Below, in pieces: positions 4,799 to 41,220 of a stretch of DNA of 49,267 nucleotides (its first letter is position 1; each line of letters begins with the position of its first letter). Both the position numbers and the translations under genes were made by a program. The DNA is taken from NCBI GenBank assembly GCA_045577475.1, contig JAZNIM010000249.1:1-49267 (forward strand), written 5' to 3'. The stretch is from Eubacteriales bacterium (GTDB lineage: Bacteria > Bacillota > Clostridia > Oscillospirales > CAG-382). A model generated the notes under the pieces. The model saw only the letters and a list, made by a program, of their open reading frames with translations, made no database searches and had not been told where the DNA came from.

Positions 4799-4814
4799 TT
4801 TCAATTCCTCATTT

Positions 4815-7800
4815 TCATATTTCTTTTACCGTTTCCTTTATTCTGTCAAAGGCAACAATGGGAAAGTCGTATTTATGTATCTGCTTTGCAACAAGTGCAT
4901 TCTTTTCAGCCCCGTTGAAATCACCAAGTCCAAGATATGCATAGGCTTTAAGTGTGTAACCCAAAAGCAAATTGTTCTTTACAATATCATCCTCAAAGGG
5001 CATTGGCGACGGTGAACCTACGCCGTAATATGTGCGTCTGTCACAGTTTTGGATAAAGCCTTCTGCCGCCGTCATCATTTCCTCAAGAACTTCTCTTGCT
5101 TGGTCGTATTTTCCAAGTTTTCTCAAAGCAAGTGCACGGAAAAGTGACAGCTCGGATACTGCCGCCTTGTACTCGGAAGCCTTTTCAAACAGCTCAGTTG
5201 CATCATTTCCTTTTCTTTCTTCAAGAAGTCCGAGATAGTAGAAAATGTGTGCCTCCTGATTAAAGAATGTCTTTGCCTCGCCGTAAGACTTAGGTACAGT
5301 TACTGCATTTTCATACATTAACTTAGCCTTTTCGTATTCGCCTTTATCCGCAAGCTCATTGGCATAAAGCACATGCATCCAGGCGTGGAGCTTTGTGAGC
5401 TTTCCCTCTCCTCCCTCATATATGTGAAAACGTCTTTGCTTTGCCATGTCTATGGCACACTTATAATCACCTATAAGGCATTTGAGGGTAATCTTATCAA
5501 GGTAACAGTCGTCACGCTTTAACATAAGCTCATTATACTTATCATAAACTTCAAGCCTATGTTCGGGACTGAAATCCATATTTTTAAGTAATTGCTGATA
5601 TTCCATAATAAGTCTTGGCTGGGTATCAAGATATCTGAGTGCATTTTCCATACTGTTCTTAGCACCGAGATAATCCTTCTTCTTGTCGAAGTAATACAGT
5701 GCAAGATTGCGGTACGCTTTAGCATAAGTTTTGTCAAGCTCTACAGCCTTTGTCCAAAGAACAGCAGCCTTATCATAGCTGAATCTGTCGTAATACAAAC
5801 AGCCGAGATAATAATATGCCTTTGCACCGTCGGGATTATTTTTTATTGCTTCTTCAAGCACTGCTATATCGTCAAGTCTTGACGGGAAGCAATAGCCTTC
5901 ATCCATGCTTTCGGCTTTTTTTAGATATTCCTTGCACTTTTCAAACATGGACAGCTTACCGTAGCAGTATGCCTTACAGTAGTCATACATGGGATACTCA
6001 TTGTCCGATATTTCAAGAGCATAAAGTGCATCCTCATACAAGCCTGCACTAATGTAAGAATATGCCGCATCCATGAAGTTTTCGCTTTTAGCATCAAACA
6101 TGCTTCTGATTTCATCGGCATTATCCTCAAAGTGACTAAGCTCTATTCTTGACATAATATCAAGTCTGTCAAGTGCCGTAATCTTTTCTGCAATCTCTTT
6201 TGCCTTTTCGTTTTCACCGAGCTTTCTTAGAACGGCACATTTAAGGTTCAAGGCTCTGAGATGTCCGTTATTAAGTGAAATTGACTCATCAAGGTTCTTT
6301 AATGCCTGTGAAAATCTTCCTTCAATGCAGTCTATCTCGGCAAGTGCAAACAACGCCGCACTTCTGTAGCTGTAATCCCACACCACTCTGTAAAGCGTGT
6401 CATATGCTTTATTATACTCGCCAAGGTACTTTTGCGCAAGTCCTTTGAGGTAAAATGCTTCAACATCGCTTGGATGCTGATTTCTCATTGTAAGCCTTTT
6501 AATGGCGGTATCAGCATATGTGATACACTGCTCAAAGCATCCGTTTTTAAGACTTATACGTGCCATTGAGGTATTGCATCTTATATCCCCCGCATCACGC
6601 TTTATGCCTTCAAGATAGTAGTCACGTGCATCGTAGTTATGCTGTTTATACTGTTCAAGGTGAAGTCCGTTGATGTACAGTTCTTCTACAGTTTCAATTT
6701 CACAGGGTCTTAAAACAGGCTGTCTTGGTTCAATAGGCTCTTTCTGACCTCTGACATAGGTCTTATAATCTACAAGCACCTTACCGTCTTCGGACGTAAG
6801 TGATACTGTCACGTTTTCAATGCTCATGCCGTTCATGAGTATTTCTTTGAGATAGGACTTGTCGGGTGACATATTACAGCTTTCTTCGTAAACCGTCACT
6901 CCTCCATGACAAACAGCCACCTTGCAGTTATCAAATTTTCCTGTCACATTAAAGCCGAAGAAAAGTACATTTTCCCGTTCTTCAACATTTACCGCCGCAT
7001 CTATGGTTGCGTTTTTAACGCCCCCTATATCACGTATGGGATACCAATACTGCTCAAACTCCTTGGTTTCGTAAGGAGCAATCCATGTGAAGTCAGGCTG
7101 GTTGTCGGTAAACACGCCTGTCATAAGCTCTATATACGGGCCGTTTTCATCAGTAAGATTTGAGCACCACATATCACCGAAATCGCCTTTGCCCCAGTGC
7201 CACATTTTTTTACCCGGCGAAATATGGTGGTTTGCAACCGTTGCAATTCCCAGGTTTTTACCTTCATCATAGCCTGCAACAAAATCCATGTCACTCTGTC
7301 CCTGTGAAACAAGGAAGGAGGACGGAACTTTAACGGCAGAATACTTTGAAATATCCGTTCCTTCACCGTAATCGAATGGACGTGCAGTTCTGTAAACACC
7401 CTTAGCTATAGGCCAGCTCATAACACAGCGTCTGTCATGGTCATTTACCCACTCAACGTCAGGCGGAAAAATTGTGCGATAGCTGTCATTAACGGGAACT
7501 GCAAGATTTGCCCACCACATGAAAATCTGCTTACTGTCGGTTCTGTTATAAACCTTGATTTTTGCTTTGATGTAAGACCTGCCTTCATCAACGGTAATTC
7601 CAGCCATGCCCTTCATTCGGTAAAAGGGGTCAACCTCTCCTGTCCACACCGTCTTTGAGCCGTCGGGATTTTCTTCAACGAATGCTTCAAGGCTCATAAA
7701 GGTTGTGGGACGGTGATGCTGCGGCCAGTTAAATTCAATACCGCCGGAAATCCAAGGGCCTGCAAGACCAACAAGTGCAGGCTTTACAACCTCATTATAA

Positions 7801-8078
7801 TATATAAAATCATAATTTCTTGTTTTATCAAGTCCTCTTAAAATCTTACCGCCAAGCTCGGGAGCTACGGCTGTTTTTACATACTCGTTTTCAAGGGTTA
7901 TGATATCATAATCCACATCTTTTTTGTCATCGCTTATACTGTCGGAAAACGGCAGAGGATACAATCTACCGCTTGCACCCTGATAAGGCTTATGTTCAAA
8001 AAACATGGGAAGCTTTATAGGCTCAGCAGGTACATATGTAGGAATACTTTGCTTTCTTCTTGTAACCTTAACGCTCAC
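4815..8078 (-). CDS. DUF5107 domain + TPR-repeat protein (paralogue B), function unknown
   Basis: Track ORF 4815..8087 (1090 aa). It shares blocks with paralogue A: GGIEFNWPQHHRP, HHISPGKKMW and DNQPDFTWIAPYETKEF. I prefer GTG 8078, where GGAG (8090-8087) lies 8 nt upstream. That start gives MSVKVTRRKQSIPTY, which parallels MENVKLKVEKMVIPTY in paralogue A. Confidence 0.75.
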   Translation of the reverse strand: MSVKVTRRKQSIPTYVPAEPIKLPMFFEHKPYQGASGRLYPLPFSDSISDDKKDVDYDIITLENEYVKTAVAPELGGKILRGLDKTRNYDFIYYNEVVKPALVGLAGPWISGGIEFNWPQHHRPTTFMSLEAFVEENPDGSKTVWTGEVDPFYRMKGMAGITVDEGRSYIKAKIKVYNRTDSKQIFMWWANLAVPVNDSYRTIFPPDVEWVNDHDRRCVMSWPIAKGVYRTARPFDYGEGTDISKYSAVKVPSSFLVSQGQSDMDFVAGYDEGKNLGIATVANHHISPGKKMWHWGKGDFGDMWCSNLTDENGPYIELMTGVFTDNQPDFTWIAPYETKEFEQYWYPIRDIGGVKNATIDAAVNVEERENVLFFGFNVTGKFDNCKVAVCHGGVTVYEESCNMSPDKSYLKEILMNGMSIENVTVSLTSEDGKVLVDYKTYVRGQKEPIEPRQPVLRPCEIETVEELYINGLHLEQYKQHNYDARDYYLEGIKRDAGDIRCNTSMARISLKNGCFEQCITYADTAIKRLTMRNQHPSDVEAFYLKGLAQKYLGEYNKAYDTLYRVVWDYSYRSAALFALAEIDCIEGRFSQALKNLDESISLNNGHLRALNLKCAVLRKLGENEKAKEIAEKITALDRLDIMSRIELSHFEDNADEIRSMFDAKSENFMDAAYSYISAGLYEDALYALEISDNEYPMYDYCKAYCYGKLSMFEKCKEYLKKAESMDEGYCFPSRLDDIAVLEEAIKNNPDGAKAYYYLGCLYYDRFSYDKAAVLWTKAVELDKTYAKAYRNLALYYFDKKKDYLGAKNSMENALRYLDTQPRLIMEYQQLLKNMDFSPEHRLEVYDKYNELMLKRDDCYLDKITLKCLIGDYKCAIDMAKQRRFHIYEGGEGKLTKLHAWMHVLYANELADKGEYEKAKLMYENAVTVPKSYGEAKTFFNQEAHIFYYLGLLEERKGNDATELFEKASEYKAAVSELSLFRALALRKLGKYDQAREVLEEMMTAAEGFIQNCDRRTYYGVGSPSPMPFEDDIVKNNLLLGYTLKAYAYLGLGDFNGAEKNALVAKQIHKYDFPIVAFDRIKETVKEI

Positions 8079-8108
8079 AAAAATCACTCCATTAAATTTT
8101 CTAACTTA

Positions 8109-8137
8109 ATTGTACCTCAAAACCTTTTCGTTTTCAA
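8109..8137 (-). promoter_or_regulatory. Sigma-70-type promoter for the DUF5107 pair
   Basis: On the minus strand: TTGAAA (8137-8132), a 17-nt spacer, then TACAAT (8114-8109). It lies about 30 nt upstream of GTG 8078 and just downstream of the GH92 terminator. Confidence 0.6.
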
Positions 8138-8152
8138 TGCTAAAATTGGGGC

Positions 8153-8183
8153 AAAAAAGCACGGGATTTTTATACCGTGCTTT
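8153..8183 (-). terminator. Rho-independent terminator after the GH92 gene
   Basis: The minus-strand RNA reads AAAGCACGG-uauaaaaauc-CCGUGCUUU followed by a U run. It lies 11 nt downstream of the GH92 stop (8194-8196). Confidence 0.75.
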
Positions 8184-8193
8184 AATAATTCAT

Positions 8194-10407
8194 TCATATA
8201 CAGGGTTCTTTGGACAGCTTCATTTTTAGAACTCCGCCGCAAGTAATCTGAGAATAAGTCAGATAGTATCTATCAAGCTTTTCGCCATTAAGGTACATTT
8301 CCTTAATATAACAGTACTCATTGGGATCTTTGTCACATTCTACGGTAAAGGTATCGGATATAGTTCTTGAATGATACTTTTTATCAAGCCTTACAGTTGA
8401 CTTTTTGAACAATGGAGTATTGATATAATATTCCTCATTGCCTATACAAACCTGTGCAAAGCCAAGTGCCGAGAGTACATACCACGCCGAAAGCTGTCCC
8501 ACATCCTCGTTACCGCAAAAGCCGAAGGCACCTTCATTATACGCCTCCTTTTGCACACGACGTGTCCAATACTGCGTTCTATCGGGTTTTCCAAGAATGT
8601 CAAAATAGTGAGTTAAATTATGACAAGGCTCGTTGGAATGATTATAATTTATATTCCAAAGCTTTGAAAAATCCGCCTCCGAAAACAGCTTTTCCAAAAG
8701 TGTAAAGGTTCTTTCTTCACCCATAAGCCTGCTAAGTCCCTTTACATCATAAGGAACAAACCAGGTCTGCTGGAAAATATTGCTCTCAACACAATATTTT
8801 TCGTCATACTCATCCTTAACCTGAATAAAGTTTCCGTCCTCATCTCTGGGGATCATAAAGCCCTGCTTTGAATCATAGTTTTCAGGATAACTGTCTGCTC
8901 TTTTCTTGAAATGAACAGCATCCTCTTCTCTGCCCAGCTTTTTTGCAAGCTTTGCCATAACATAGTCAAAGAGAAGATATTCAAGAGTTATGCTTATGTT
9001 TTCGTGTCTGTAAGCTCGTTCAACCATCGTTTTATAGGGTGGAATTGTTGAATGAAACGGTCTTCCGTAAAGCTCTTTTTCATACATTGACGATGCACGG
9101 CTTATTTCAAAGACTTTTTGGATATCAAAATCAGCAATGCCCTTAAAGTATGCATCAGCAGAAACAAGTAGTCCCGGGTCACCCACCATACAGCCTGCAT
9201 CAATTGCAGCAAGCTCCCATCTTGGAAGAGTGGAGTTTTTATTAAGTGCAATTTTTAACAGTGAATTAACCTCATCGTTTACAACATCGGGACGTATCAC
9301 CGTGAGCAGCGGAAATTCGCTTCTGTAAACATCCCATCCACTGAACATTGTTCTGAACCTAAAATCGGCTTTTTCAACGCTTTCGTCCTGAAGAACAAAT
9401 CTGCCGTCTGCATCGGCGGCTGTTCTGGGATCAAGGAGCACGTGATAAAGACAAGTATAGAACAGCTTCAAATCCTTTTCGTTACTTCCCTCAACGCTTA
9501 CGCCTTCAAAGGCCTCCTCCCACATCGCAGACGCATCTTTTCTCACCTTATCAAAATCAAAAGTGTTCATTTCACATGCAAGATTATTTCTTGCTCCGTC
9601 AAGGTCAACGTAAGACACTCCGCATCTCAGCACAACAGGCATATTCACAGAACTGTCAAACAAAGCAATCATTCCGATGTCTGCACCCTCGCATTTATCA
9701 GCAACGCCGTCAAGATATTCTTCATTTTCAAAGAATTTCACTGCTTTCGGCTTTTCACTCAGCTCCAACGAAAAATAGTAATTATACTTTATTCCGCCTC
9801 GTCCTCTGCCAAAGCCGCCTCCTTCAGGCGAGCATTTAATAACTCCTTCAACAAGCTTACCGTTAACCGTTACACTTTCAAAATCAGCATGTCCTGCAAT
9901 ACGTCTGGAAAAATTAAAAATGATTCTTCTGTCACTGTTTTCAGGGTAAGCAAACCTTAGCATACCGCAATGAACTGTTACTGTAGCCTCAGCAAAAATG
10001 CCGTATTTATCAAGCTTTACGGAATAGTAGCCTGCCTCAGCTTTTTCATTGTCGTGAGAAAAGCGGGATTTCCAACCTTCACGTCCCTTGACAAATGGCA
10101 CTTCGGCATTACTTCCGCTTCTCAAATCTGTTTCTCCCACTACAGGCATTATCTGAAGGTTACCCAAATCTCCATACCAGCCGATACCGCTCATGTGGTT
10201 AAAGCTGAAGCCCTCAATTGTATCATTGCAATAGTTATATCCGGTACCGTTATCGCCTGCTGTTATTGTATCAGGTGAAAGCTGTACCATTCCGAAGGGC
10301 ACACAAGCACCGGGATGTGTTTTCCCTCCGCCATGTACACATCCGGCAGCTTTCTTTTCATCACCTACAGAACCGATAATCGGGTCCACATATTTTGCTT
10401 TATTCAA
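8194..10407 (-). CDS. Glycoside hydrolase family 92 (alpha-mannosidase), apparently cytoplasmic
   Basis: Track ORF 8194..10479. Motifs are YVDPIIGS, GGGKTHPGACVPFGMVQLSPDT and GNEDVGQLSAWYVLSALGF. I prefer TTG 10407, with AGGAGA (10422-10417) 9 nt upstream. There is no signal peptide. Confidence 0.85.
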   Translation of the reverse strand: MNKAKYVDPIIGSVGDEKKAAGCVHGGGKTHPGACVPFGMVQLSPDTITAGDNGTGYNYCNDTIEGFSFNHMSGIGWYGDLGNLQIMPVVGETDLRSGSNAEVPFVKGREGWKSRFSHDNEKAEAGYYSVKLDKYGIFAEATVTVHCGMLRFAYPENSDRRIIFNFSRRIAGHADFESVTVNGKLVEGVIKCSPEGGGFGRGRGGIKYNYYFSLELSEKPKAVKFFENEEYLDGVADKCEGADIGMIALFDSSVNMPVVLRCGVSYVDLDGARNNLACEMNTFDFDKVRKDASAMWEEAFEGVSVEGSNEKDLKLFYTCLYHVLLDPRTAADADGRFVLQDESVEKADFRFRTMFSGWDVYRSEFPLLTVIRPDVVNDEVNSLLKIALNKNSTLPRWELAAIDAGCMVGDPGLLVSADAYFKGIADFDIQKVFEISRASSMYEKELYGRPFHSTIPPYKTMVERAYRHENISITLEYLLFDYVMAKLAKKLGREEDAVHFKKRADSYPENYDSKQGFMIPRDEDGNFIQVKDEYDEKYCVESNIFQQTWFVPYDVKGLSRLMGEERTFTLLEKLFSEADFSKLWNINYNHSNEPCHNLTHYFDILGKPDRTQYWTRRVQKEAYNEGAFGFCGNEDVGQLSAWYVLSALGFAQVCIGNEEYYINTPLFKKSTVRLDKKYHSRTISDTFTVECDKDPNEYCYIKEMYLNGEKLDRYYLTYSQITCGGVLKMKLSKEPCI

Positions 10408-10448
10408 AATAACAATTCTCCTTTTTTTATCATCAACTGCTTGCTTTA

Positions 10449-10495
10449 AAATGATAAGCACAAGCATATTATGAAGCACACTCGGCTTATCATTT
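10449..10495. repeat. 11-bp perfect inverted repeat in the GH92 upstream / Dabb downstream region
   Basis: AAATGATAAGC (10449-10459) pairs with GCTTATCATTT (10485-10495) across a 25-nt spacer. Confidence 0.6.
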
Positions 10496-18025: not shown

Positions 18026-19477
18026 TCAAACAAAGTATTTTCTTATAAAGTACGTTGGTGTACAACTCCATGCGTGGCACCCACTGTTTATCATTCTGTC
18101 ACCGTAGGGTGAAAAGTCGTTGTCCTCGGGTACAAACACCTCATAGAAGGTATCTGCACCCTTTTCAACCATAATGCCCCAGTAATTCTTGATGTATTCC
18201 TTAGCTTTATCAAGCATTTCAAGCTTTATAAGTGCCTCAACAACGTAGTGATGCATATACGGCGTGAAGGGTTTAATGATATCCTTATTACTGAGCACAC
18301 GTGTCAGCATATTCTTCGCTTCTTCTCCCGATATAACACCGCCCAAAATCATCCACACAACCGAATGTACGCTGTACTGATAGTTATCCTTGCCTGCCTT
18401 GAAAAGTCCCTTCTCGCAGTCAAAAAGCTGTTTCCTGGATTTAATCCTAAGTTCTTCAAGAACAGCCGAATACTTTTCAAGGTCATCATGTGAAAGCTTT
18501 TCAAGAACGCTGCAAAGATTATCCAGCACGTACAGCAGCACGCCCTGCAAACTAGTCTGCTTTACAAGATTGGGGCACCAATCTATAAAACCTCCCAATT
18601 CCCACGACTTTATAATTCCGTCCTCATCAAGAGCATTTACACATGCATCAATCTGGCTTTTTGCAACCTCGTACAACTCAAGGAAGGTTTCTTTGTCGCC
18701 GGTATGATGATACAAGTCACATAAGCTGCAACAGAACAACAATGCATAGTCGCCGCACATCCAATCTCCGTTGTAAAATTCGGGATAGTCATAAACGTGG
18801 GTAGGCAGCAAGCCGTAGGAGTTTTTATCGCAGGCTGCAAAAAGATACAGGCATCTTTTTACGAGGTCAATATTGCCGAAGGTATAATAATTTGCCAAAG
18901 CTTCAAGCCGCAAATCCCCTAACCAAAGGCGTCTGTCACGCTTAGGACCGTCCTCGAAAACCCTCTGCATGCAGTTTTTAAGAGTATTAACACCTATTCT
19001 GTCAATTTCTCTCAGCTTTTCATCAGAGATTTCAACCTTCTTCAAAGTGTTTTCGTCCGCACTTGTAACGGATGTGAAACAAATGTTTTTAAGCACAAAT
19101 TCCTGAGGAGTGGCAAGTACCGTGATTTTCACAAATCCTGCGGCGTATCTTCTCGGAAGCTTATATTCACCTGCGTAATCAAATGTAACTATTTCCTCTT
19201 GAAGCCAGGATGAGCAAAGACCGCCGTTATACTTTGAAAAATCGTCGTCAAGCTCTCTTTTGGTTTCACAGAATTTTATACTGAGCCTCACGGGTGCATC
19301 AAGGTAAACCTTATGACGCTTAATATCAAAAGACAAATATCCTGCACCGTACGTACCAAAATCAAACACTTTGCTTTCGCCGCTTTTGAGTATGTATTCC
19401 GAGGCTTCAGAAAAAACTGCCTTTTCATACAATTCGGGAATTATTTCATATGCTTTTTGAAGATATTTATTATTCAT
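18026..19477 (-). CDS. (alpha/alpha)6 six-hairpin glycoside hydrolase-like protein, GH78 (rhamnosidase)-related
   Basis: 483 aa. DGPKRDRRLWLGD and the C-terminal SGCHAWSCTPTYF resemble the rhamnosidase six-hairpin domain. There is no signal peptide. The family call comes from memory of motifs only. Confidence 0.5.
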   Translation of the reverse strand: MNNKYLQKAYEIIPELYEKAVFSEASEYILKSGESKVFDFGTYGAGYLSFDIKRHKVYLDAPVRLSIKFCETKRELDDDFSKYNGGLCSSWLQEEIVTFDYAGEYKLPRRYAAGFVKITVLATPQEFVLKNICFTSVTSADENTLKKVEISDEKLREIDRIGVNTLKNCMQRVFEDGPKRDRRLWLGDLRLEALANYYTFGNIDLVKRCLYLFAACDKNSYGLLPTHVYDYPEFYNGDWMCGDYALLFCCSLCDLYHHTGDKETFLELYEVAKSQIDACVNALDEDGIIKSWELGGFIDWCPNLVKQTSLQGVLLYVLDNLCSVLEKLSHDDLEKYSAVLEELRIKSRKQLFDCEKGLFKAGKDNYQYSVHSVVWMILGGVISGEEAKNMLTRVLSNKDIIKPFTPYMHHYVVEALIKLEMLDKAKEYIKNYWGIMVEKGADTFYEVFVPEDNDFSPYGDRMINSGCHAWSCTPTYFIRKYFV

Positions 19478-20393: not shown

Positions 20394-21248
20394 ATGGGAT
20401 TTAAAGAAGGAAGACGCATTAAAAGCGGACACCCCATGGATGCAATTTCCCCGTTTATTATGCCTACCCGCTCAGGTGCATCAAACATGTTTATCTACAG
20501 CGTTGACATTACCAAGTGCGAACAGCTCATAAAAGATAAAAAAGCCGAAGGTCTTAAAAATATCGGCATGATACATCTTTTCATGGCAGCATACACAAGG
20601 GTGGTGGCAACACTTCCCGGAGTCAACAGATTTATCCGCGGACAACGTTTATATGCAAGAAACAACATTGAAATCTGCATGGTTATTAAAAAGGAGCTTT
20701 CCCTTAATGCTCCCGAAACAGTTGTCAAGATTTTTCCTTCTCCTTCCGATACTTTAGACAGTATTTACAAGCAGCTTGATGACACAATTGCCGAGAATTC
20801 AGGCGAGGGTGATACAAACAGCATGGACACGGTTGCAAGGATACTTACAAAGCTCCCACGCATTTTTCTGCGTTCCTCAATCGGAATAATCAATTTTTTA
20901 GATTATTTCGGTTTGCTTCCGAGGTTTATAACAAATCTCAGTCCCTTCCACGGTTCGATTTTTATGACAAATCTTGGTTCACTTGGTATTCCTCCCGTTT
21001 ATCACCACTTATACGATTTCGGCAATCTTCCGGTTTTCCTTGCAATGGGTGCTAAAAGGACTGAATATGTTTTGAACAAGGACGGCGAAGCGGAAAAACA
21101 CAGGCTTATAGACTTTACGGTTGTATGCGACGAGAGAATATGCGACGGTCATTATTATGCAACTGCTTTCAAGAAGTTCAAGCGTATTCTTGAGCACCCC
21201 GAGCAGTTAAATGAAGCTCCCGCAGAAATTGTTGATGACATAAAGTGA
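20394..21248 (+). CDS. Stand-alone 2-oxoacid dehydrogenase E2 / CAT-like acyltransferase-fold protein
   Basis: 284 aa. The C-terminal VVCDERICDGHYYATAF aligns by eye with the E2 DHRxxDG motif and the CAT HHAVCDG motif. Confidence 0.55.
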   Translation: MGFKEGRRIKSGHPMDAISPFIMPTRSGASNMFIYSVDITKCEQLIKDKKAEGLKNIGMIHLFMAAYTRVVATLPGVNRFIRGQRLYARNNIEICMVIKKELSLNAPETVVKIFPSPSDTLDSIYKQLDDTIAENSGEGDTNSMDTVARILTKLPRIFLRSSIGIINFLDYFGLLPRFITNLSPFHGSIFMTNLGSLGIPPVYHHLYDFGNLPVFLAMGAKRTEYVLNKDGEAEKHRLIDFTVVCDERICDGHYYATAFKKFKRILEHPEQLNEAPAEIVDDIK

Positions 21249-21255
21249 ATTTTAA

Positions 21256-21292
21256 GGTTGTTGCAATTTGCAGCAGCCTTTTAGTTTTGTTT
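21256..21292 (+). terminator. Rho-independent terminator of the acyltransferase-like gene
   Basis: GGUUGUUGCA-auu-UGCAGCAGCC forms a 10-bp stem with 2 G-U pairs. UUUUAGUUUUGUUU follows. Confidence 0.7.
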
Positions 21293-21303
21293 CAAATAAA
21301 TTC

Positions 21304-21333
21304 TTGACACATACACCTTCTAAGTGATATACT
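21304..21333 (+). promoter_or_regulatory. Strong sigma-70-like promoter facing manA
   Basis: TTGACA (21304-21309), an 18-nt spacer, then TGaTATACT (-10 at 21328-21333). It lies about 300 nt upstream of the manA ATG. I saw no better promoter closer to manA. Confidence 0.55.
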
Positions 21334-21343
21334 GTTAAAAAGT

Positions 21344-21372
21344 AAAAAAAGCCTCCCGATTATCTCGGGAAG
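21344..21372 (-). terminator. Rho-independent terminator of the small minus-strand ORF
   Basis: The minus-strand RNA reads CUUCCCGA-gauaa-UCGGGAGG (8 bp including one G-U), then C and UUUUUUU. On the plus strand the same stem has a C-A mismatch and no good U tract. Confidence 0.8.
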
Positions 21373-21390
21373 CTCATTTCGGAGAATGCA

Positions 21391-21504
21391 GTGCTGATTT
21401 TACTTACAGCTCTTGGAATTCTTGTTGTCGGCGGAATTATTGTTGCTCTTGTTATCTGCCTTGTTGTCCGCCTTGTTATCAGCCTTATTTACGTAAAGCT
21501 GTGA
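21391..21504 (+). CDS. Candidate 37-aa hydrophobic (single-TM-like) peptide antisense to the KADN ORF
   Basis: Not in the track. The start is GTG 21391, with GGAGA 5-6 nt upstream. My translation is MLILLTALGILVVGGIIVALVICLVVRLVISLIYVKL, ending at TGA 21502-21504. It may simply be the complementary-strand shadow of the K/N/D-rich ORF. Confidence 0.25.
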   Translation: MLILLTALGILVVGGIIVALVICLVVRLVISLIYVKL

Positions 21505-21552
21505 ATCCTGCGTCTTATTGTCTGCCTTATTTTTTGCGTTTTTGTTAGACAT
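21400..21552 (-). CDS. Small hydrophilic KADN-repeat protein (50 aa), unknown function
   Basis: Not in the track (under 60 aa). My translation is MSNKNAKNKADNKTQDSQLYVNKADNKADNKADNKSNNNSADNKNSKSCK. AAGGAG lies 8 nt upstream of ATG 21552. The stop is TAA, and terminator 21344-21372 follows. Confidence 0.5.
   Translation of the reverse strand: MSNKNAKNKADNKTQDSQLYVNKADNKADNKADNKSNNNSADNKNSKSCK
21448..21483. repeat. Three tandem 12-nt units (CTTGTTRTCNGC)
   Basis: cttgttatctgc / cttgttgtccgc / cttgttatcagc. They encode KADN x3 on the minus strand and LV(I/V)x on the plus strand. A related copy lies at 21421-21432. Confidence 0.8.
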
Positions 21553-21605
21553 TGTTTTTACTCCTTTACTGTTTGGTAATCATAGTATTTTCCCATTTTG
21601 AAAAA

Positions 21606-21633
21606 ATAATACACTTTGAAAGGAATTTGTAAA
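21606..21633 (-). promoter_or_regulatory. Weak candidate promoter for the small minus-strand ORF
   Basis: On the minus strand: TTTACA (21633-21628), a 16-nt spacer, then TATTAT (21611-21606). It overlaps the manA SD/start region. Confidence 0.3.
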
Positions 21634-22587
21634 ATGAATTTTTATCCACTAAAATTAAAGCCTGTTACAAAATACATCATCTGGGGCGGCAACTATCTCA
21701 AAGAAAATTTCGGTTACAAAAGTGACGACGAGAACATTGCAGAAGCATGGATTACAACCTGTAGACCCGATGGTGTAAACATAATCGAAAACGGCGAATA
21801 TGAGGGTTTGACTCTTGACAAATACATTGAAGATGCAGGAAAAGAGAATGTATACGGCTCTTTTGAGGATTTTCCCCTTCTCATAAAATTCATTGATGCC
21901 AACGACAAGTTATCCGTTCAGGTTCATCCCGATGATGAGTATGCAAAGGCTAACGGTCTTGATGCAGGTAAAACGGAAATGTGGTACATAGTGGATTCAA
22001 AAGAAGGTGCAAGTCTTGTTTACGGACTTCGTGATAAGGTAAAGCCTACGGCAAAGGAGCTTTTGGAATACAACGAACAAGGCAAGCTTGCTGAAAAGCT
22101 CAACTTCGTTCCCGTAAAGAAAGGTGACTGCTTCTTTATCCCCGCAGGTCTTGTTCACGCTATCGGCGAAGGCATTGTTATTGCAGAAATTCAGCAGAAT
22201 TCCAACACCACCTACCGCATGTACGATTATGACAGAATTGGCAAGGACGGCAAAAAGAGAGAGCTTCACATAGAAAAGGCTGCTGAGGTTATCAAGACTG
22301 ATTTTGAAGGCGATTTTATATCAGGCAAGGTTATTGACGAAACAAAAACAATTCTTTGCGACTGTAACCTTTTCTCTGTTGAAAAGTTTATTGTTGACGG
22401 CTGTGATTTAGCAGTTGACGGCGGCACTATGACAAGCATCATCTGTCTTGACGGTAACGGTACTATTATGTGTGACGGAAAAGAGTATGCGGTTTCAAAG
22501 GGTGACTCTTATCTTCTTCCAAAAGCTTTAAGCGGTGTTACGGTTAAGGGCGGCAAGTGTGAGATTATTGTATCAAAAGCAAAATAA
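21634..22587 (+). CDS. manA: Mannose-6-phosphate isomerase, class I
   Basis: The track ORF begins at TTG 21616. I prefer ATG 21634 (MNFYPLKLKPV...). Motifs are LSVQVHPDD, KTEMWYIV and IPAGLVHAIGEG. Confidence 0.85.
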   Translation: MNFYPLKLKPVTKYIIWGGNYLKENFGYKSDDENIAEAWITTCRPDGVNIIENGEYEGLTLDKYIEDAGKENVYGSFEDFPLLIKFIDANDKLSVQVHPDDEYAKANGLDAGKTEMWYIVDSKEGASLVYGLRDKVKPTAKELLEYNEQGKLAEKLNFVPVKKGDCFFIPAGLVHAIGEGIVIAEIQQNSNTTYRMYDYDRIGKDGKKRELHIEKAAEVIKTDFEGDFISGKVIDETKTILCDCNLFSVEKFIVDGCDLAVDGGTMTSIICLDGNGTIMCDGKEYAVSKGDSYLLPKALSGVTVKGGKCEIIVSKAK

Positions 22588-32085: not shown

Positions 32086-33360
32086 TTAATCAAGGTAATC
32101 GCGAAGTCTTTTTGAGCGGCTGGGATGACGAAGCTTACGCAGAGCCTTTGCTTCAATCTGTCTGATACGCTCACGGGTGATATTGAACACCTTGCCTACT
32201 TCCTCAAGTGTACGTGTTCTTCCGTCTTCAAGACCGAATCTGAGCTTGAGAACGTGTTCTTCTCTCGGTGTAAGGGTATGAAGAACCTCACAAAGCTGTT
32301 CTCTGAGAAGTGTATAGGATGCCGCTTCCGCAGGTGCAGGGGCGTCATCATCGGGAATGAAGTCACCGAGGTGGCTGTCCTCCTCCTCACCGATAGGTGT
32401 TTCAAGGCTGACAGGCTCCTGAGCAAGCTTCATAATATCTCTTACCTTTTCAACGCTCATATTCATTTTTGCAGCAATTTCCTCAGTGGAGGCTTCGTGA
32501 CCAAGCTCCTGAAGAAGCTGTCTTGAAACTCTCAGCACCTTATTGATGGTTTCAACCATGTGAACGGGAATTCTGATGGTTCTTGCCTGATCGGCAATTG
32601 CACGGGTGATTGCCTGACGAATCCACCAGGTTGCGTAGGTAGAGAACTTATAGCCCTTGGTATAGTCAAACTTTTCAACAGCCTTCATAAGACCAAGGTT
32701 ACCCTCCTGAATAAGGTCAAGGAAGAACATACCTCTGCCCACGTATCTTTTTGCAATACTTACAACAAGTCTGAGGTTACTCTCAACCAGCTTCTGCTTT
32801 GCACTTTCATCGCCGTTCGCCATTTTTTCCGCAAGAGAAAGCTCCTGTTCTGTGCTGAGAAGGTCAACCTTACCGATTTCTTTAAGATACATCTTAACGG
32901 GGTCATCGATAATCAAGCCGTCCTGAGCAAGAAGGGAATCGTTTTCGTCGTCGCCATCATAGCCGTCGATATTATCAACATTTGCAAGACCTGCTTCAAG
33001 GTCGCTGAAGGAATCATCAGTATAACCCGTTACTTCAATACCCAGGTTTTCAATGGTTTCCATGAGCTTTTCCATATTCTCTACGTCAAGCTCTTCTTCA
33101 TCCAGCACCTCAAGGATTTCTTCATTGGTAAGAGAACCCTTTGCCTTACCCTTTTCCAAAAGCTCCTGAATGTCATTTTTCTTTTTAGTCTGCTCAGGTG
33201 CTGCGCCACCCTCGGCAGCCGCTTCCTTTTTGGCAGTACGTGTTCTCTTTTTCTTTTCGGTTTTTTCTTCCTGTGCAGAGTCCTGTTCTGTGGCTGCTTG
33301 TTCATTCTGCTCAACAACGTTTTCTTCAAGAATTTCTGCAGCTTCCTTCTTTTTAGCCAT
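32086..33360 (-). CDS. rpoD: Primary RNA polymerase sigma factor
   Basis: Track ORF runs to 33384. I prefer ATG 33360, preceded by GAAAGGAAG. It has an acidic N-terminus, region 2 ([14 protein letters not shown]) and region 4.2 ([28 protein letters not shown]). Confidence 0.95.
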
Positions 33361-33404
33361 ATATAACTTCCTTTCTGCCGGCACATGCCGTAATGAATAT
33401 TTAA

Positions 33405-35210
33405 CTATTTATTTCCGACGCCCTTATCCGCCTTTGCTTTTGCGATTATATCCATAAGGTCATCATTGGAATCAATATTTTTCTTCACGGTATTAAGACG
33501 CATTTTTTCTTTTTTCAGAGCGGCAATCTGCTCATTAAGAGCCTTTGTTCCGTTTGACGAAAGCTCCTGACGGCGGAATTTCATATCAAAAATCCTTGAT
33601 ATTTCCTCGGGAGTAAAACTTTCATTAAGACTTGACAGCTCTGTTTCGTTTGCTTTATAAAGCTCACTAATTGCAGTAAACACACGCTTACTGAAGCCTG
33701 TTACAAAGTCATCCTCCGTAATGGAGTCGCATTTTGCATATTCTTCGGGAAACAGCAAAATTATTCCGAGAATTCTCTCCTCTATTTCAACTGCCACGGG
33801 ACATGAAACAGCCTCGGGATTTATTCTGTCATCAAAATGGAGAGTCTTTTTCTGGATGCTTTCACGTTTTGCTATACTTTCCTGCTTTTCCGCTTTTCTG
33901 CGGCCTTTGGAAATTCTTGCATTTATACTGTCAACCTTAACCTCTGTAAGCTGGGAAAGTCTTTGAACGTATATATCCCGCTTAACCTCGGAATATATGC
34001 CTGCAATTACATTACAACACTCGTCAACGGCTCTCAGCTTTTCATCCGGGTTTGCAAGGTTATACTTTGTGAGTATGCCGTTAAGCTTAAAGTCAATCTG
34101 TCCCACCGAGCCTGACAAAAGCTGTTTGAAGGCTTCGGCACCGAACTTTTTAATATACTCATCAGGGTCCTTTGCCCCGTCCATCTTAATGATTTTGGTT
34201 TCAACGCCAACCTCATTAAGCATTGTCATTGCCTTATCTGCCGCTTTCTTACCCGCCTCATCGCTGTCATAGGCAAGATACGCTTTTTTTGCATATCTCG
34301 ACACTACTCTTGCATGCTCGCTTGTAATAGCCGTACCGAGAGTTGCAACCGCATTTGTAAAGCCTGCCTGATGCATTGCAATTACATCCATATAACCCTC
34401 GCACAGGATTATTTCTCCCCGGGAAACAAGATTGCTTTCAACGTTTCCGAGAAGAACATTCTTGGCGTAATTGAGGGCAAACAGATTCTTGCCTTTTCTG
34501 AAAACAACCGTATCCGAGGAGTTGAGGTACTTTGGCTTTGAGTCATCCATAACTCTGCCGCCGAAAGCAATTACATTTCCCGATGTATCAATAATGGGAA
34601 AAATCACTCGGTTTCGGAACATATCAAAGGGTTTTCCCGATTTCTGGGAAATACCGCACAGGAAGTTTTCTTTTATTTCATCCTGAGTATAACCAAGCTT
34701 TGTCAGCTTATTATACAAATCGTAAAAATCATTTTTTGCAAATCCAAGACCAAAGCGTTTTACCGTTGCACTCGAAAGCTGTCTTGAATTAAGATACTCA
34801 CGAGCCTGTGCACCGTCTTCCGACAAAAGATTTTCATAGAAAATTCTTGCCGCCGCTTTATTCATTGAAAAAGCTCTGTCACGGGTCAGCTTTGGCTTTT
34901 CGGCGTTTGAGTATTTTCTATCCTCCTGAGGCACCGTCATTCCGCACCTGTCGGCAAGGAAATTAACGGCATCCCTGTAATCAAGGTTTTCAATCTGCAT
35001 TATAAAGGTAATCACATCACCGCCGGCAGAGCAGCCGAAGCAATGGTAATTATCCTCGAAAACAGTAAATGACGGAGTTTTTTCGCTATGGAAGGGACAT
35101 CTGCCCACAAGGTTACGCCCTGCTCTTTTAAGCTCAACGTACCTTCCGATTACGTCCTGAATGGGAGAACGCATCTTTAATTCCTGTATAAACCCTTGCG
35201 GATATGCCAT
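33405..35210 (-). CDS. dnaG: DNA primase
   Basis: 601 aa. It has the CHC2 zinc finger [13 protein letters not shown]...CFGC and the TOPRIM segment [10 protein letters not shown]. Confidence 0.95.
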
Positions 35211-38128: not shown

Positions 38129-39520
38129 TTAGACGGTAGTTACCTTATTTTCGGTATCTGTATTTGCATCAAGTCCGTTTACAGCAAGCTTTCTGTTCTC
38201 GAAGAACTTTACTGCAACCTGATCAAAGAGTGCATAGGAAAGAACGTCTTCATCCTGCATCATATACTGTGCACATTCGCCCTTAAGCTTTTCAAGCTCA
38301 GGCTTAATGTTATCAGCAGGTCTGCATGTAATCTGCTTTTCGTCGCCGATTACCTTCTTCTTTACTTCTTCATTGATAGGCATAGGTGTCTTACCGTATT
38401 CGCCTCTTACAAGACCCTTAAATTCCTTAGTAACCATCTTATAGCGTTCACCTGAAATCACATTCATAACTGCCTGTGTACCTACAATCTGGCTGGAGGG
38501 TGTTACAAGAGGAGGATAACCGACATCTGCTCTTACTCTCGGAACTTCTTCAAGAACCTCTAAGAGCTTATCGCTCTTACCTGCGTTCTTAAGCTGAGAA
38601 ACGAGGTTACTGAGCATACCGCCGGGAACCTGATAAAGAAGTGCGTTAACGTCAACCTTAAGAACCTTGGGGTCAAGAAGACCGCTTGCAAGGTACTTTT
38701 CACGAAGTGCGTCAAACTGCTTGGAAGCCTTATCAAGCTTTGCAAGGTCAAGACCTGTATCATACTGAGTGCCTGCAAGAGTAGCAACGATAGGCTCTGT
38801 CGGAGGCTGGGATGTACCCATAGCAAGAGGAGATATAGCTGTGTCGATAATATCTACGCCTGCTTCAACCGCCTTGAGAACTGTCATGGATGCAAGACCT
38901 GCGGTATAGTGAGTATGAAGCTGAAGAGGAATCTTTACGTTTTCCTTAAGAGCCTTAACAAGCTCGTAGGAATCGTAAGGTTTTAACAGACCTGCCATAT
39001 CCTTGATACAGATTGAGTCTGCGCCCATTTCTTCAAGCTGCTTTGCGTACTTTACATAGTACTCTGTTGTATAGGAAGGGCCTGTTGTATAGCTGAATGC
39101 AGCCTGAACATGACCGCCTTCCTTCTTTGTTGCATTAATTGCTGTCTTGAGGTTACGGGTATCGTTAAGAGCATCGAAAATTCTGATGATATCAATACCG
39201 TTTGCGATTGACTTCTGAACAAAGTATTCAACAACGTCATCCGCATAGTGTCTGTAACCGAGAATATTCTGACCTCTGAAAAGCATCTGAAGCTTTGAGT
39301 TCTTTATATGGCTTCTGATGGTTCTGAGTCTTTTCCAAGGGTCTTCATTAAGGAATCTGAGACAAGCATCAAATGTTGCTCCGCCCCATACTTCCATGGC
39401 ATAATAGCCTATATCGTCAAGGGAATCAAGAATCGGAAGCATTTCTTCCGTTGTCATACGTGTTGCAACAAGGGACTGATGCGAATCACGCAGAGCTGTT
39501 TCCATAATTTTTACTGCCAT
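38129..39520 (-). CDS. Oxaloacetate decarboxylase alpha / transcarboxylase 5S-type carboxyltransferase, lacking a biotinyl domain
   Basis: 463 aa. It has IMETALRDSHQSLVATRMTTEEMLPI, EVWGGATFDACLRFLNEDPWKRL and QMLFRGQNILGY. No AMKM motif is present at the C-terminus. Confidence 0.85.
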   Translation of the reverse strand: MAVKIMETALRDSHQSLVATRMTTEEMLPILDSLDDIGYYAMEVWGGATFDACLRFLNEDPWKRLRTIRSHIKNSKLQMLFRGQNILGYRHYADDVVEYFVQKSIANGIDIIRIFDALNDTRNLKTAINATKKEGGHVQAAFSYTTGPSYTTEYYVKYAKQLEEMGADSICIKDMAGLLKPYDSYELVKALKENVKIPLQLHTHYTAGLASMTVLKAVEAGVDIIDTAISPLAMGTSQPPTEPIVATLAGTQYDTGLDLAKLDKASKQFDALREKYLASGLLDPKVLKVDVNALLYQVPGGMLSNLVSQLKNAGKSDKLLEVLEEVPRVRADVGYPPLVTPSSQIVGTQAVMNVISGERYKMVTKEFKGLVRGEYGKTPMPINEEVKKKVIGDEKQITCRPADNIKPELEKLKGECAQYMMQDEDVLSYALFDQVAVKFFENRKLAVNGLDANTDTENKVTTV

Positions 39521-39540
39521 CGTAATTTTCCTTTCTTAAA

Positions 39541-40755: not shown

Positions 40756-40783
40756 TAGAATGCACCTCGTGTTTCGTTAAAAC

Positions 40784-41188: not shown

Positions 41189-41220
41189 AATAATAATCTC
41201 CTTTAATACGTAAAGATTTT

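What the first reader, a model, noticed from the sequence alone, without database searches (positions are those of the whole stretch)
21300..21640. Mirror-coding small-ORF module in the largest intergenic gap: hydrophilic KADN-repeat ORF on one strand, hydrophobic 37-aa ORF on the other, inside the putative manA leader
**Minus strand (a complete small unit)**
- A weak promoter candidate lies at 21633-21606.
- AAGGAG sits 8 nt before ATG 21552.
- The 50-aa ORF is MSNKNAKNKADNKTQDSQLYVNKADNKADNKADNKSNNNSADNKNSKSCK, with three 12-nt tandem repeats.
- A clean intrinsic terminator follows (21372-21344, U7).
- That stem pairs better in the minus-strand RNA (a G-U pair) than in the plus-strand RNA (a C-A mismatch).

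**Plus strand**
- The best promoter of the region, TTGACA-N18-TGaTATACT (21304-21333), fires into the same DNA.
- GGAGA lies 5-6 nt before GTG 21391.
- It opens a 37-aa ORF, MLILLTALGILVVGGIIVALVICLVVRLVISLIYVKL, which looks like one TM helix.
- The manA ATG (21634) follows 130 nt later. I found no convincing promoter nearer to manA.

**Inference, three possibilities**
- (a) manA has a ~300-nt leader that is fully antisense to a small-protein mRNA, giving transcriptional interference or RNA duplex control.
- (b) This is a type I toxin-antitoxin-like pair, with a hydrophobic peptide opposed by an overlapping antisense transcript.
- (c) Only the minus-strand ORF is real, and the hydrophobic frame is the automatic complement of K/N/D/A codons.

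Neither ORF is visible in the supplied track.
Basis: partly seen in the sequence, partly recalled or inferred. Interest (0 to 1): 0.65.

Follow-up and report, generated by a model that had tools for sequence, protein, structure and literature searches.

The report
Small gene nested opposite manA leader
An unannotated but conserved gene for a 50-residue lysine/asparagine-rich protein sits back-to-back with the mannose-6-phosphate isomerase gene manA, whose likely promoter lies beyond it so the two transcripts should overlap; the hydrophobic peptide on the other strand is a mirror image of the small gene's codons and not a gene.

Summary

**Minus-strand 50-aa ORF (21552..21400): a real gene.**
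- Nine further lineages from gut and rumen metagenomes carry it, always divergent from manA with a 79-90 nt spacer.
- dN/dS is 0.08-0.3.
- Nine of 10 strain SNPs are synonymous third-position changes.
- It keeps its Shine-Dalgarno sequence and a one-directional terminator.
- It has no Pfam or NCBIfam family and is predicted to be disordered.

**Plus-strand 37-aa hydrophobic ORF: not a gene.**
- In-frame stops break it in 8 of 9 other lineages, including the closest one.
- Synonymous recodings of the small gene give an equally hydrophobic open frame 80% of the time.
- The type I toxin-antitoxin reading is rejected.

**Plus-strand sigma-A promoter (21304-21333): conserved.**
- TTGAC[AG]-N17/18-TATACT is present in 8 of 10 lineages.
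- Hexamer identity is 84-95%; spacer and flank identity is about 32%.
- It always lies just beyond the small gene's terminator and points at manA.

**Best reading.** This is a cotG/cotH-like, excludon-like nested antisense pair. manA has a roughly 294-nt leader fully complementary to the small mRNA. The small gene's own conserved promoter (GTATT-N17/18-AAnACTAT) resembles the SigB/F/G type, not sigma-A.

No RNA data could be obtained, so transcription and regulation remain inferred.

The parts
21400..21552 (-). Small protein gene: 50 aa, N13 K11 S6 A6 D6, pI 9.6, GRAVY -2.0. Invariant residues are M1 S2 K4, L-Y-V-N-K, D-N-K and the C-terminal C-K.
   Evidence: ORF. Homologues P0001-P0008 and L001. 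dN/dS 0.08-0.3. Nine of 10 strain SNPs are synonymous third-position changes. No Pfam or NCBIfam hit. Disordered model, pLDDT 60, pTM 0.12.
21448..21486 (-). 12-nt tandem repeat (3.2 copies) encoding the (A/S)(D/E)NK units. Copy number differs between lineages.
   Evidence: TRF. Protein alignment: L001 has an extra NKSE unit.
21561..21566 (-). Shine-Dalgarno AAGGAG, 8 nt before the ATG. AAAGGAG is present in all nine distinct lineages.
21582..21612 (-). Conserved promoter-like pair for the small gene. The -35-like GTATT is at 21612..21608. The -10-like (G)AAAATACTAT is at 21592..21582. The GTATT to AAnACTA spacing is 17-18 nt in every lineage.
   Evidence: Alignment A2 shows invariant TGT.T and AA.ACTAT columns. 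Match to B. subtilis sigma-F GTATA/GGNAANAMTR is 4/5 + 7/8. Match to sigma-G GNATA/CAWAMTA is 3/4 + 6/7. Consensus taken from PMC3416734. Matches of this quality occur at the chance rate in the window, so only the conservation carries weight.
21339..21375 (-). Intrinsic terminator of the small gene (11-bp stem, U7). It is effective only in the small-gene direction.
   Evidence: Every lineage has a GC-rich hairpin of different sequence. Each is followed by a T run on the small-gene strand and none on the manA strand.
21381..21389 (.). Conserved motif between stop codon and terminator. It reads GCATT(T)TCTCC on the small-gene strand and GGAGAA(AA)TGC on the manA strand. Its function is unexplained.
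   Evidence: The ATG inside it falls in different frames in different lineages. Pairing between the 5' translation-initiation region and the 3' UTR was tested and not supported.
21304..21333 (+). Sigma-A-type promoter TTGACA-N18-TGaTATACT pointing through the small gene toward manA. The predicted transcription start is about 21340.
   Evidence: 11/12. Conserved at 50-66 nt from the small-ORF stop in 8 of 10 lineages. Mean pairwise identity is 0.84 for the -35 box and 0.95 for the -10 box. It is 0.33 for the spacer and 0.32 for the upstream flank. Strain SNPs fall in the spacer and downstream, never in the hexamers.
21340..21633 (+). Inferred manA leader of about 294 nt. It starts with the complement of the terminator hairpin. 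It is fully antisense to the small mRNA, which runs from about 21577 to about 21345.
   Evidence: Inference from the promoter position. No plus-strand terminator-like site lies between 21340 and 21634. No Rfam family matches. No RNA-seq run holds the region.
21634..22587 (+). manA, class I mannose-6-phosphate isomerase, 317 aa.
   Evidence: TIGR00218 E=4e-47. PF20511 and PF21621. Adjacent to the small gene in all lineages with readable flank.
21391..21504 (+). 37-aa hydrophobic ORF. It is not a gene; it is the codon-complement frame of the small gene.
   Evidence: Stops in this frame in L001, L002, L006, L007, L011, L013, L014 and L015. All 7 strain SNPs inside it change its amino acids. Eighty percent of synonymous recodings give an open stretch of at least 32 codons. 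Their mean hydropathy is 2.52 +/- 0.19, against 2.46 observed. No Pfam or NCBIfam hit.
21254..21280 (+). Terminator-like hairpin after the upstream acyltransferase-like gene (20394-21248). It separates that gene from the manA promoter.
   Evidence: gene identity.

Best explanation
The locus is a conserved three-part module: a sigma-A promoter, a small gene on the opposite strand, and manA.

**Shown**
- The minus strand encodes a real, lineage-restricted, intrinsically disordered 49-54-aa protein rich in K, N and D.
- That gene has its own Shine-Dalgarno sequence and a one-directional terminator.
- The plus-strand hydrophobic ORF is a compositional mirror image and is not a gene.

**Inferred from conservation**
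- manA is transcribed from the sigma-A promoter at 21304-21333, which lies just beyond the small gene's terminator.
- The manA mRNA therefore carries a leader of about 294 nt. The leader begins with a 5' stem-loop and is complementary to the whole small mRNA.
- The small gene is read from its own non-sigma-A promoter, GTATT-N17/18-AAnACTAT. That promoter is best matched by the SigB/SigF/SigG subfamily, meaning stress or forespore sigma factors.

**Inferred mechanism**
- The two promoters face each other about 235 nt apart and are expected to antagonise each other.
- The expected routes are polymerase collision and RNase III-sensitive duplex formation. This is an excludon, or a cotG/cotH-type nested antisense arrangement.
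- ManA would then be made during growth, and the small protein under the alternative sigma factor's condition.

The small protein's biochemical role is unknown. My guess is a dormancy or stress hydrophilic protein, held at low confidence.
For: **Small gene is real**
- Homologues occur in nine other lineages.
- dN/dS is 0.08 against the closest lineage. It is 0.1-0.5 elsewhere, with synonymous sites saturated.
- Nine of 10 population SNPs are synonymous third-position changes, P=3.6e-4.
- The Shine-Dalgarno sequence is conserved.
- Hairpins of different sequence are each followed by a T run on the small-gene strand only.

**Hydrophobic ORF is not a gene**
-.

**Distal manA promoter**
- It scores 10-11/12 in 8 of 10 lineages at a fixed position next to the terminator.
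- Hexamer identity is 0.84 and 0.95, against 0.32-0.33 for the spacer and flank.
- The chance of a score of at least 10/12 in a given lineage is 1-6%.
- Strain SNPs avoid the hexamers.
- The module keeps manA, the small gene and the promoter together while the outer neighbouring gene varies.
- No plus-strand terminator lies before manA, and no good proximal promoter exists.

**Small-gene promoter**
- Invariant blocks at constant spacing match the sigma-F and sigma-G consensus quoted in PMC3416734.
- The position corresponding to -12 of a hypothetical manA -10 (nATAGT) varies among C, T, G and A. This argues against the block being a sigma-A -10 for manA.

**Precedents**
- The excludon definition is given in PMC12288877.
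Against: - No transcript evidence could be obtained. No RNA run holds the window or L001.
- Two lineages lack the distal promoter. In L007 a gene oriented like manA (convergent with the small gene) ends 34 nt beyond the small gene's stop codon. In L014 the best match is only 8/12.
- A weak proximal manA promoter cannot be excluded. Candidates are nATAGT 45-47 nt before the ATG, and TTGACA-N16-TACTnT at 9/12 in L002 and L014.
- Single-sequence matches to the sigma-F and sigma-G consensus occur at the chance rate: 9 found against 9.8 expected in the window.
- From memory, a sigma-B-like reading (GTATTA-N12-GGGAAA) also fits some lineages.
- No sporulation gene was seen in the 49-kb window. Its penicillin-binding protein scores as PBP2/MrdA and not as SpoVD.
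- The hairpin at about +10 of the leader might attenuate plus-strand transcription.
Confidence: 0.55

Rival explanations
1. Type I toxin-antitoxin-like pair. The plus-strand 37-aa hydrophobic peptide would be a membrane toxin, opposed by the overlapping minus-strand transcript.
For: In the window alone the ORF is open and strongly hydrophobic. It is preceded by GGAGA and lies downstream of a strong promoter.
Against: - The frame carries in-frame stops in 8 of 9 other lineages, including L014, whose small protein is 90% identical.
- The GTG start is not conserved.
- All 7 strain SNPs in it are non-synonymous in this frame and synonymous in the opposite one.
- Random synonymous recodings of the small gene reproduce the open hydrophobic frame.
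- It has no Pfam or NCBIfam toxin family hit.
Confidence: 0.02
2. Only the small gene matters. manA uses a weak proximal promoter in the 81-nt spacer, or read-through from the upstream gene. The distal sigma-A promoter is then either non-functional for manA or makes only a short or incidental antisense RNA. On this view the overlap is genome compaction without a regulatory role.
For: - L007 and L014 lack a good distal promoter, yet keep the small gene and manA together.
- The conserved nATAGT lies 45-47 nt before the manA ATG.
- L002 and L014 have TTGACA-N16-TACTnT (9/12), formed by the reverse complement of the small gene's start region.
- A hairpin of -12.9 kcal/mol sits at the start of the proposed leader.
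Against: - Distal hexamers are 84-95% conserved within otherwise unalignable DNA. They travel with the module across different neighbouring genes.
- Proximal candidates score only 7-9/12, and their -35 and first -10 positions are not conserved.
- No plus-strand terminator lies between the distal promoter and manA.
Confidence: 0.25
3. The small gene is driven by an ordinary sigma-A promoter, namely the reader's TTTACA-N16-TATTAT at 21633..21606. It would be expressed constitutively alongside manA, with no condition-specific switch.
For: The match is 10/12 in the window. Similar matches exist in L001 (TTTGCA) and L014 (TTGCAA).
Against: - The -35 position overlaps the manA start codon. It degenerates to TTAAAA, TAAAAA or AAACAT in the other lineages, and the -10 becomes TATTTT.
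- This reading leaves the most conserved block of the spacer, AAnACTAT 17-18 nt downstream, unexplained.
Confidence: 0.15
4. The minus-strand element is a non-coding cis-antisense RNA that regulates manA, and its ORF is not translated.
For: The transcript would be fully complementary to the proposed manA leader. The protein is low-complexity and predicted to be disordered.
Against: - Substitutions show codon-position periodicity, and dN/dS is far below 1.
- The start codon, Shine-Dalgarno sequence at 7-9 nt, stop and length (49-54 aa) are conserved.
- The residues LYVNK..DNK...CK are invariant.
Confidence: 0.03

Closest known systems
Bacillus subtilis cotG/cotH locus (gene nested antisense in the long 5' UTR of its divergent neighbour)
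   Same: - A gene for a repeat-containing, lysine-rich, low-complexity protein lies entirely between the promoter and the coding region of the divergently oriented neighbour (PMC4130616).
- Here the small gene, with its 12-nt tandem repeats and K/N/D-rich product, lies between the conserved sigma-A promoter and manA.
   Different: - The partner is a sugar isomerase, not the CotH kinase.
- The leader is about 294 nt, not more than 800 nt.
- The nested protein is 50 aa. From my memory, CotG is about 195 aa.
- There is no sequence homology to any Pfam family, CotG included.
- From my memory, both cot genes are mother-cell sigma-K genes. Here the two promoters are of different types.
- The long leader here is inferred, not mapped.
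Divergent excludons (Listeria, E. coli, S. aureus)
   Same: Divergent neighbours in which one mRNA's long 5' UTR overlaps the other gene. The expected outcome is transcriptional interference and RNase III cleavage, giving mutually exclusive expression (PMC12288877 abstract).
   Different: Excludons are defined from RNA-seq overlap and opposing expression. Neither could be tested here. This case is supported only by promoter and terminator conservation.
Dual-function antisense RNAs encoding small proteins, e.g. B. subtilis SR7/SR7P
   Same: A short mRNA dependent on an alternative sigma factor encodes a small protein (39 aa for SR7P). The same RNA also acts as a cis-antisense RNA to a neighbouring gene's transcript (abstract of 10.1101/2020.05.15.097949).
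   Different: - No homology.
- The sigma factor here is not established.
- The target is the leader of a metabolic gene.
- No experimental evidence exists for either function.
Minor small acid-soluble spore proteins (SspK, SspN, SspO, SspP type) and other small hydrophilic dormancy proteins
   Same: - Similar size (about 50 aa).
- Strongly hydrophilic, basic and low-complexity.
- Monocistronic with its own terminator.
- The promoter resembles the forespore sigma-F/sigma-G consensus.
   Different: - No hit to any SASP Pfam or NCBIfam family at E<=1.
- Whether the organism sporulates is unknown.
- The resemblance is compositional and partly recalled from memory.
Type I toxin-antitoxin systems (e.g. 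txpA/RatA, bsrG/SR4, fst)
   Same: In this one sequence, a small hydrophobic ORF is overlapped by an antisense transcript.
   Different: The hydrophobic ORF is not conserved and is explained by codon complementarity.

Membership tests
Type I toxin-antitoxin system | Conserved small hydrophobic toxin ORF under purifying selection | tested here: not met
   Stops in the frame in 8 of 9 other lineages. All 7 SNPs in it are non-synonymous. The frame is reproduced by recoding simulations.
Type I toxin-antitoxin system | Match to a known toxin family | tested here: not met
   No Pfam or NCBIfam family at E<=1 for the 37-aa peptide.
Divergent excludon / nested antisense gene pair (cotG/cotH type) | Divergently oriented neighbouring genes | tested here: met
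   The small gene is on the minus strand and manA on the plus strand, with start codons 81 nt apart. The arrangement is the same in all lineages with readable flank.
Divergent excludon / nested antisense gene pair (cotG/cotH type) | Promoter of one gene located beyond the other gene, so that its 5' UTR covers that gene | tested here: inconclusive
   A conserved near-consensus sigma-A promoter lies beyond the small gene in 8 of 10 lineages, with no terminator in between. No transcript 5' end is mapped, and two lineages lack the promoter.
Divergent excludon / nested antisense gene pair (cotG/cotH type) | Overlapping transcripts detected and mutually exclusive expression | not testable with these tools
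   No RNA run holds the window or L001.
cotG/cotH module proper | Partner gene encodes a CotH-family kinase and the nested protein is CotG-like | tested here: not met
   The partner is manA (TIGR00218). The small protein has no Pfam hit.
Small acid-soluble spore proteins (alpha/beta-type or minor SASP families) | Sequence match to a SASP family model | tested here: not met
   Zero families at E<=1 in Pfam and NCBIfam.
Small acid-soluble spore proteins (alpha/beta-type or minor SASP families) | Forespore (sigma-F/sigma-G) promoter | tested here: inconclusive
   The conserved GTATT-N17/18-AAnACTA matches the consensus at 4/5 + 7/8 for sigma-F and 3/4 + 6/7 for sigma-G. Matches of this quality occur at the chance rate in the window.
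Small acid-soluble spore proteins (alpha/beta-type or minor SASP families) | Host is an endospore former | tested here: inconclusive
   No sporulation gene lies among the 43 window ORFs scanned. The penicillin-binding protein scores as PBP2/MrdA and not SpoVD. The rest of the genome is not available.
Protein-coding small ORF (real gene) | Purifying selection in frame, conserved start, Shine-Dalgarno sequence and stop, and its own terminator | tested here: met

The most novel reading that the evidence does not exclude
The small mRNA may be a dual-function RNA. It would encode a stress- or dormancy-specific disordered K/N-rich protein. Through complete complementarity to the manA leader, it would also form a conserved bistable switch. 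That switch would make ManA synthesis (the supply of mannose for envelope and glycan synthesis) and small-protein synthesis mutually exclusive. The setting would be an uncultured gut/rumen Eubacteriales lineage. This would link a central sugar-nucleotide enzyme to a developmental or stress sigma factor through an excludon that has been maintained across species.
Probability: 0.2. Interest if true: 0.6.

Novelty: new member of a known kind. Interest (0 to 1): 0.4.

Why it matters
- **Annotation.** This real small-protein gene has never been called in this genome. Its exact sequence is absent from a collection of about 15 billion proteins. The family has no name and comprises about ten lineages (eight protein clusters in the databases, plus the window and L001).
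- **A caution for small-ORF hunting.** A gene rich in K, N, D and A automatically produces an open, transmembrane-looking ORF on the opposite strand. That ORF should not be read as a type I toxin.
- **Evolution of antisense architecture.** Nested antisense (excludon or cotG/cotH-like) arrangements are usually found by RNA-seq in model organisms. They are rarely shown to be conserved. Here the promoter, nested gene and target gene travel together across species while the outer neighbourhood changes. That is comparative evidence that the architecture itself is selected.
- **If confirmed.** It would give a simple natural system for studying mutual exclusion between a housekeeping metabolic gene and a gene dependent on an alternative sigma factor.

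Tried and rejected
1. **Rfam.** No family reached the gathering score anywhere in the window. In E-value mode on 21200-21700 only sub-threshold chance hits appeared (RmaA, mir-722, rli26). There is no known riboswitch or leader.
2. **Pfam and NCBIfam on both peptides.** Nothing at E<=1.
3. **Metagenome collection scans.** The peptide-pattern scan and the DNA pattern CTTTAYGTAAATAARGCTGAYAAYAA both returned nothing. Loci came instead from the look-up of encoding contigs and one genome-collection hit.
4. **RNA evidence.** Three RNA-run searches (two on window stretches, one on L001) listed no run.
5. **Extending the contig to look for sporulation genes.** Exact look-ups of the window's lspA and rluD products were not on record.
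6. **Sigma-factor assignment by consensus scoring.** Sigma-F-like and sigma-G-like matches occur at shuffle frequency. The assignment therefore rests only on conservation.
7. **Pairing between the small mRNA's translation-initiation region and the conserved 3' motif.** It was no better than shuffles in 9 of 10 loci.
8. **Structure prediction.** The model has low confidence and almost no secondary structure (one 3-residue helical turn). No fold search was run.
9. **Other antisense frames.** No ORF is conserved in any of the three antisense frames.
10. **Paralogues in the window.** None were found (tblastn).
Full report
**1. Observation**

- A 50-aa ORF lies on the minus strand at 21552..21400 (MSNKNAKNKADNKTQDSQLYVNKADNKADNKADNKSNNNSADNKNSKSCK).
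- A 37-aa hydrophobic ORF lies on the plus strand at 21391..21504.
- The consensus scan finds the plus-strand promoter TTGACA-N18-TATACT at 21304-21333. It scores 11/12 and has an upstream TG.
- The same scan finds a minus-strand match at 21633..21606 (10/12) and a minus-strand terminator at 21375..21349.
- TRF finds the 12-nt repeat, 3.2 copies, at 21448-21486.
- The terminator folds at -20.6 kcal/mol as minus-strand RNA and -12.9 as plus-strand RNA.
- The downstream gene is manA (TIGR00218, E=4e-47).
- The upstream gene (20394-21248) is a 2-oxoacid-dehydrogenase-type acyltransferase domain protein.

**2. The minus-strand ORF is a real gene**

*Homologues.*
- A search of 5.8 billion proteins with the 50-aa peptide returned five proteins of 49-53 aa.
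- A profile search returned eight.
- An exhaustive HMMER scan of 1.8 billion cluster representatives found the same handful and nothing else credible.
- One further locus came from a Eubacteriales MAG.
- All share M-S-x-K at the N-terminus and an invariant L-Y-V-N-K-x-D-N-K core. All have (A/S)(D/E)NK repeats, and all but one end in C-K.
- No source gives any member a name. The window's own sequence is absent from the 15-billion-protein collection.

*Selection.*
- Against the closest lineage (L014, 90% amino-acid identity), dN/dS is 0.08.
- Most other pairs give 0.1-0.3 with saturated synonymous sites.
- Logan contigs from eight gut, sheep and bovine metagenome runs were laid on the window. 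They gave ten polymorphic sites inside the ORF.
- Nine of the ten are third-codon-position synonymous changes in the minus frame, P=3.6e-4.

*Signals.*
- AAAGGAG at 7-9 nt before the ATG is present in every lineage.
- Every lineage has a GC-rich hairpin of different sequence. Each is followed by a T run on the small-gene strand only.

*Protein properties.*
- Composition is N13, K11, S6, A6, D6. The pI is 9.6 and GRAVY is -2.0.
- AlphaFold2 gives pLDDT 60, pTM 0.12 and almost no secondary structure.
- It matches no Pfam or NCBIfam family.

**3. The plus-strand hydrophobic ORF is not a gene**

- It is the exact codon-complement frame of the small gene. On that frame K, N and D codons read as L/F, V/I and V/I.
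- In the homologous loci this frame is broken by stops in L001, L002, L006, L007, L011, L013, L014 and L015. Only L012 is open.
- The GTG start is not conserved.
- All seven strain SNPs inside it change its amino acids.
- In 5000 synonymous recodings of the small protein using the window's codon usage, 80% gave an open stretch of at least 32 codons in this frame. Mean hydropathy was 2.52 +/- 0.19, against 2.46 observed.

The type I toxin-antitoxin reading is rejected.

**4. Synteny**

- In every lineage with readable flank, the small gene is divergent from manA, with 79-90 nt between the start codons.
- The genes beyond manA also match the window: Exo_endo_phos, HAD hydrolase, a 198-aa protein and a beta-lactamase-fold protein.
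- The gene on the other side of the small gene varies. It is an acyltransferase, a 578-aa protein, an abhydrolase, a VWA protein or a 996-aa FG-GAP protein.

**5. The plus-strand promoter is conserved and belongs to the module**

- In manA orientation, the best sigma-A-like site in the 200 nt beyond the small ORF's stop was scored in each lineage.
  - win, L002, L011, L013 and L015 have TTGACA-N17/18-TATACT.
  - L001 and L012 have TTGACG-N17-TATACT.
  - L006 has TTTACT-N17-TATAAT.
- The site always lies 50-66 nt from the stop codon, directly abutting the terminator.
- Across seven distinct lineages, mean pairwise identity is 0.84 for the -35 box and 0.95 for the -10 box. It is 0.33 for the spacer and 0.32 for the 20 nt upstream.
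- A score of at least 10/12 arises in 1-6% of shuffles per lineage.
- Strain variants that differ at 12 of 120 positions leave both hexamers intact.
- There is no terminator-like site on the plus strand between 21340 and the manA ATG.
- The spacer has no good sigma-A promoter for manA. The best score is 7-8/12 in the window.

The most economical reading is that this is the manA promoter.
- The transcription start would be near 21340, giving a leader of about 294 nt.
- The first element of the leader is the complement of the terminator hairpin.
- The leader covers the whole small mRNA in antisense.

There are two exceptions.
- In L007, a gene oriented like manA (and so convergent with the small gene) ends 34 nt beyond the small gene's stop codon. 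Any transcription from it that reads on toward manA would still cross the small gene in antisense.
- In L014 the best match is only 8/12.

**6. The small gene's own promoter**

- An alignment of the spacer from nine lineages shows invariant blocks: TGT.T (within GTATT, 21612..21608) and AA.ACTAT (21589..21582). They are 17-18 nt apart in every lineage. The Shine-Dalgarno sequence is also invariant.
- The conserved pair matches the B. subtilis sigma-F consensus GTATA/GGNAANAMTR at 4/5 + 7/8. It matches the sigma-G consensus GNATA/CAWAMTA at 3/4 + 6/7. The consensus is quoted from PMC3416734, Table 4.
- Matches of this quality occur in the window at the shuffle rate, 9 found against 9.8 expected. 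Only the conservation is evidence.
- From memory, a sigma-B-type reading (GTTTAA-N12-15-GGGWAW) also partly fits some lineages.
- I therefore call it a SigB/F/G-subfamily-like, non-sigma-A promoter.
- Read on the manA strand, the block is nATAGT, and its first base varies among C, T, G and A. This argues against it being a sigma-A -10 for manA.
- No sporulation gene is present among the 43 ORFs of the window. The forespore idea is therefore unproven.

**7. Mechanism (inferred)**

- The two promoters face each other, roughly 235 nt apart between predicted starts.
- The small gene's terminator stops its transcript essentially at the manA transcription start.
- Expected consequences are polymerase collision and a perfect RNA duplex of about 230 bp that is open to RNase III.
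- This is the logic of a divergent excludon (PMC12288877).
- It is also the logic of the B. subtilis cotG/cotH locus. [quoted passage not shown]
- The SR7/SR7P dual-function antisense RNA is another analogue.
- No RNA-seq run holding the locus could be found. Transcription, antagonism and conditions of expression remain untested.

**8. Verdict**

- The finding is real, but its most exciting reading (type I toxin-antitoxin) is wrong.
- What remains is an unannotated, conserved orphan small-protein gene. It is nested antisense in the probable long leader of manA, and the architecture is conserved across about ten lineages of gut and rumen Eubacteriales.
- This is a new member of a known kind of arrangement. 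Interest is moderate (0.4).

Noticed in passing
window 21381-21389 (and the same position in L001, L006, L011, L012, L014, L015): A conserved 9-11-nt motif lies between the small gene's stop codon and its terminator. It reads GCATT(T)TCTCC on the small-gene strand and GGAGAA(AA)TGC on the manA strand. It looks like a Shine-Dalgarno sequence plus ATG, but the ATG falls in different frames in different lineages. Pairing with the small mRNA's translation-initiation region is no better than shuffles. Its function is unexplained.
   Followed up: partly
window 21545-21551; L002, L006, L011-L015 at the small gene's start codon: In most lineages codon 2 is TCA, so the reverse complement of ATG-TCA-AA reads TTGACA on the manA strand. 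With TACTnT 16 nt downstream this gives a 9/12 sigma-A-like site about 60 nt before manA in L002 and L014. The window has TCT (TAGACA, spacer 15), but strain variants carry 21547 A>T, which restores TTGACA. This may be a secondary manA promoter built from the small gene's own translation signals.
   Followed up: partly
window 21464-21511: Logan contigs of runs X1 and X2 break inside the 12-nt repeat region, where depth is 0. Lineages also differ in the number of (A/S)(D/E)NK units; L001 has one more. This suggests repeat-number polymorphism or assembly collapse in the repeat.
   Followed up: no
window 21290-21345: Several metagenome contigs match the window up to the terminator and then continue with unrelated sequence (loose ends at 21345, 21339 and 21293 in X1, X5, X7 and X19). 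One of them still carries a TATACT box. The DNA just outside the manA promoter seems to be a breakpoint where the gene neighbourhood differs between strains.
   Followed up: no
window 1583-10479: Two large paralogous DUF5107 + TPR proteins (1073 and 1090 aa) lie next to a GH92 alpha-mannosidase-family gene. A GH78 rhamnosidase-like gene lies at 18026-19477. These glycan and mannose-utilisation genes are about 11-20 kb from manA.
   Followed up: no
window 38129-43140: There is a gene cluster for a biotin-dependent, Na+-translocating decarboxylase. It includes a carboxyltransferase, OAD gamma-like and biotin carrier proteins, OAD beta, and a PYC_OADA/HMGL subunit. The dnaG-rpoD operon (32086-35210) lies next to it. 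This context is typical of a Firmicutes chromosome, with GC 42%.
   Followed up: no
window 44931-46744: Transketolase is encoded as separate N-terminal (284 aa), pyrimidine-binding (160 aa) and C-terminal (130 aa) ORFs. The split between the last two may be a frameshift or a real split gene.
   Followed up: no
L007-L010 (protein P0008): In this most divergent lineage the small protein has lost the C-terminal C-K (it ends KERK). The distal sigma-A promoter is also absent, because a 996-aa FG-GAP gene ends 34 nt after the small gene. The GTATT-N17-AATACTAT promoter block and the manA linkage are retained.
   Followed up: partly
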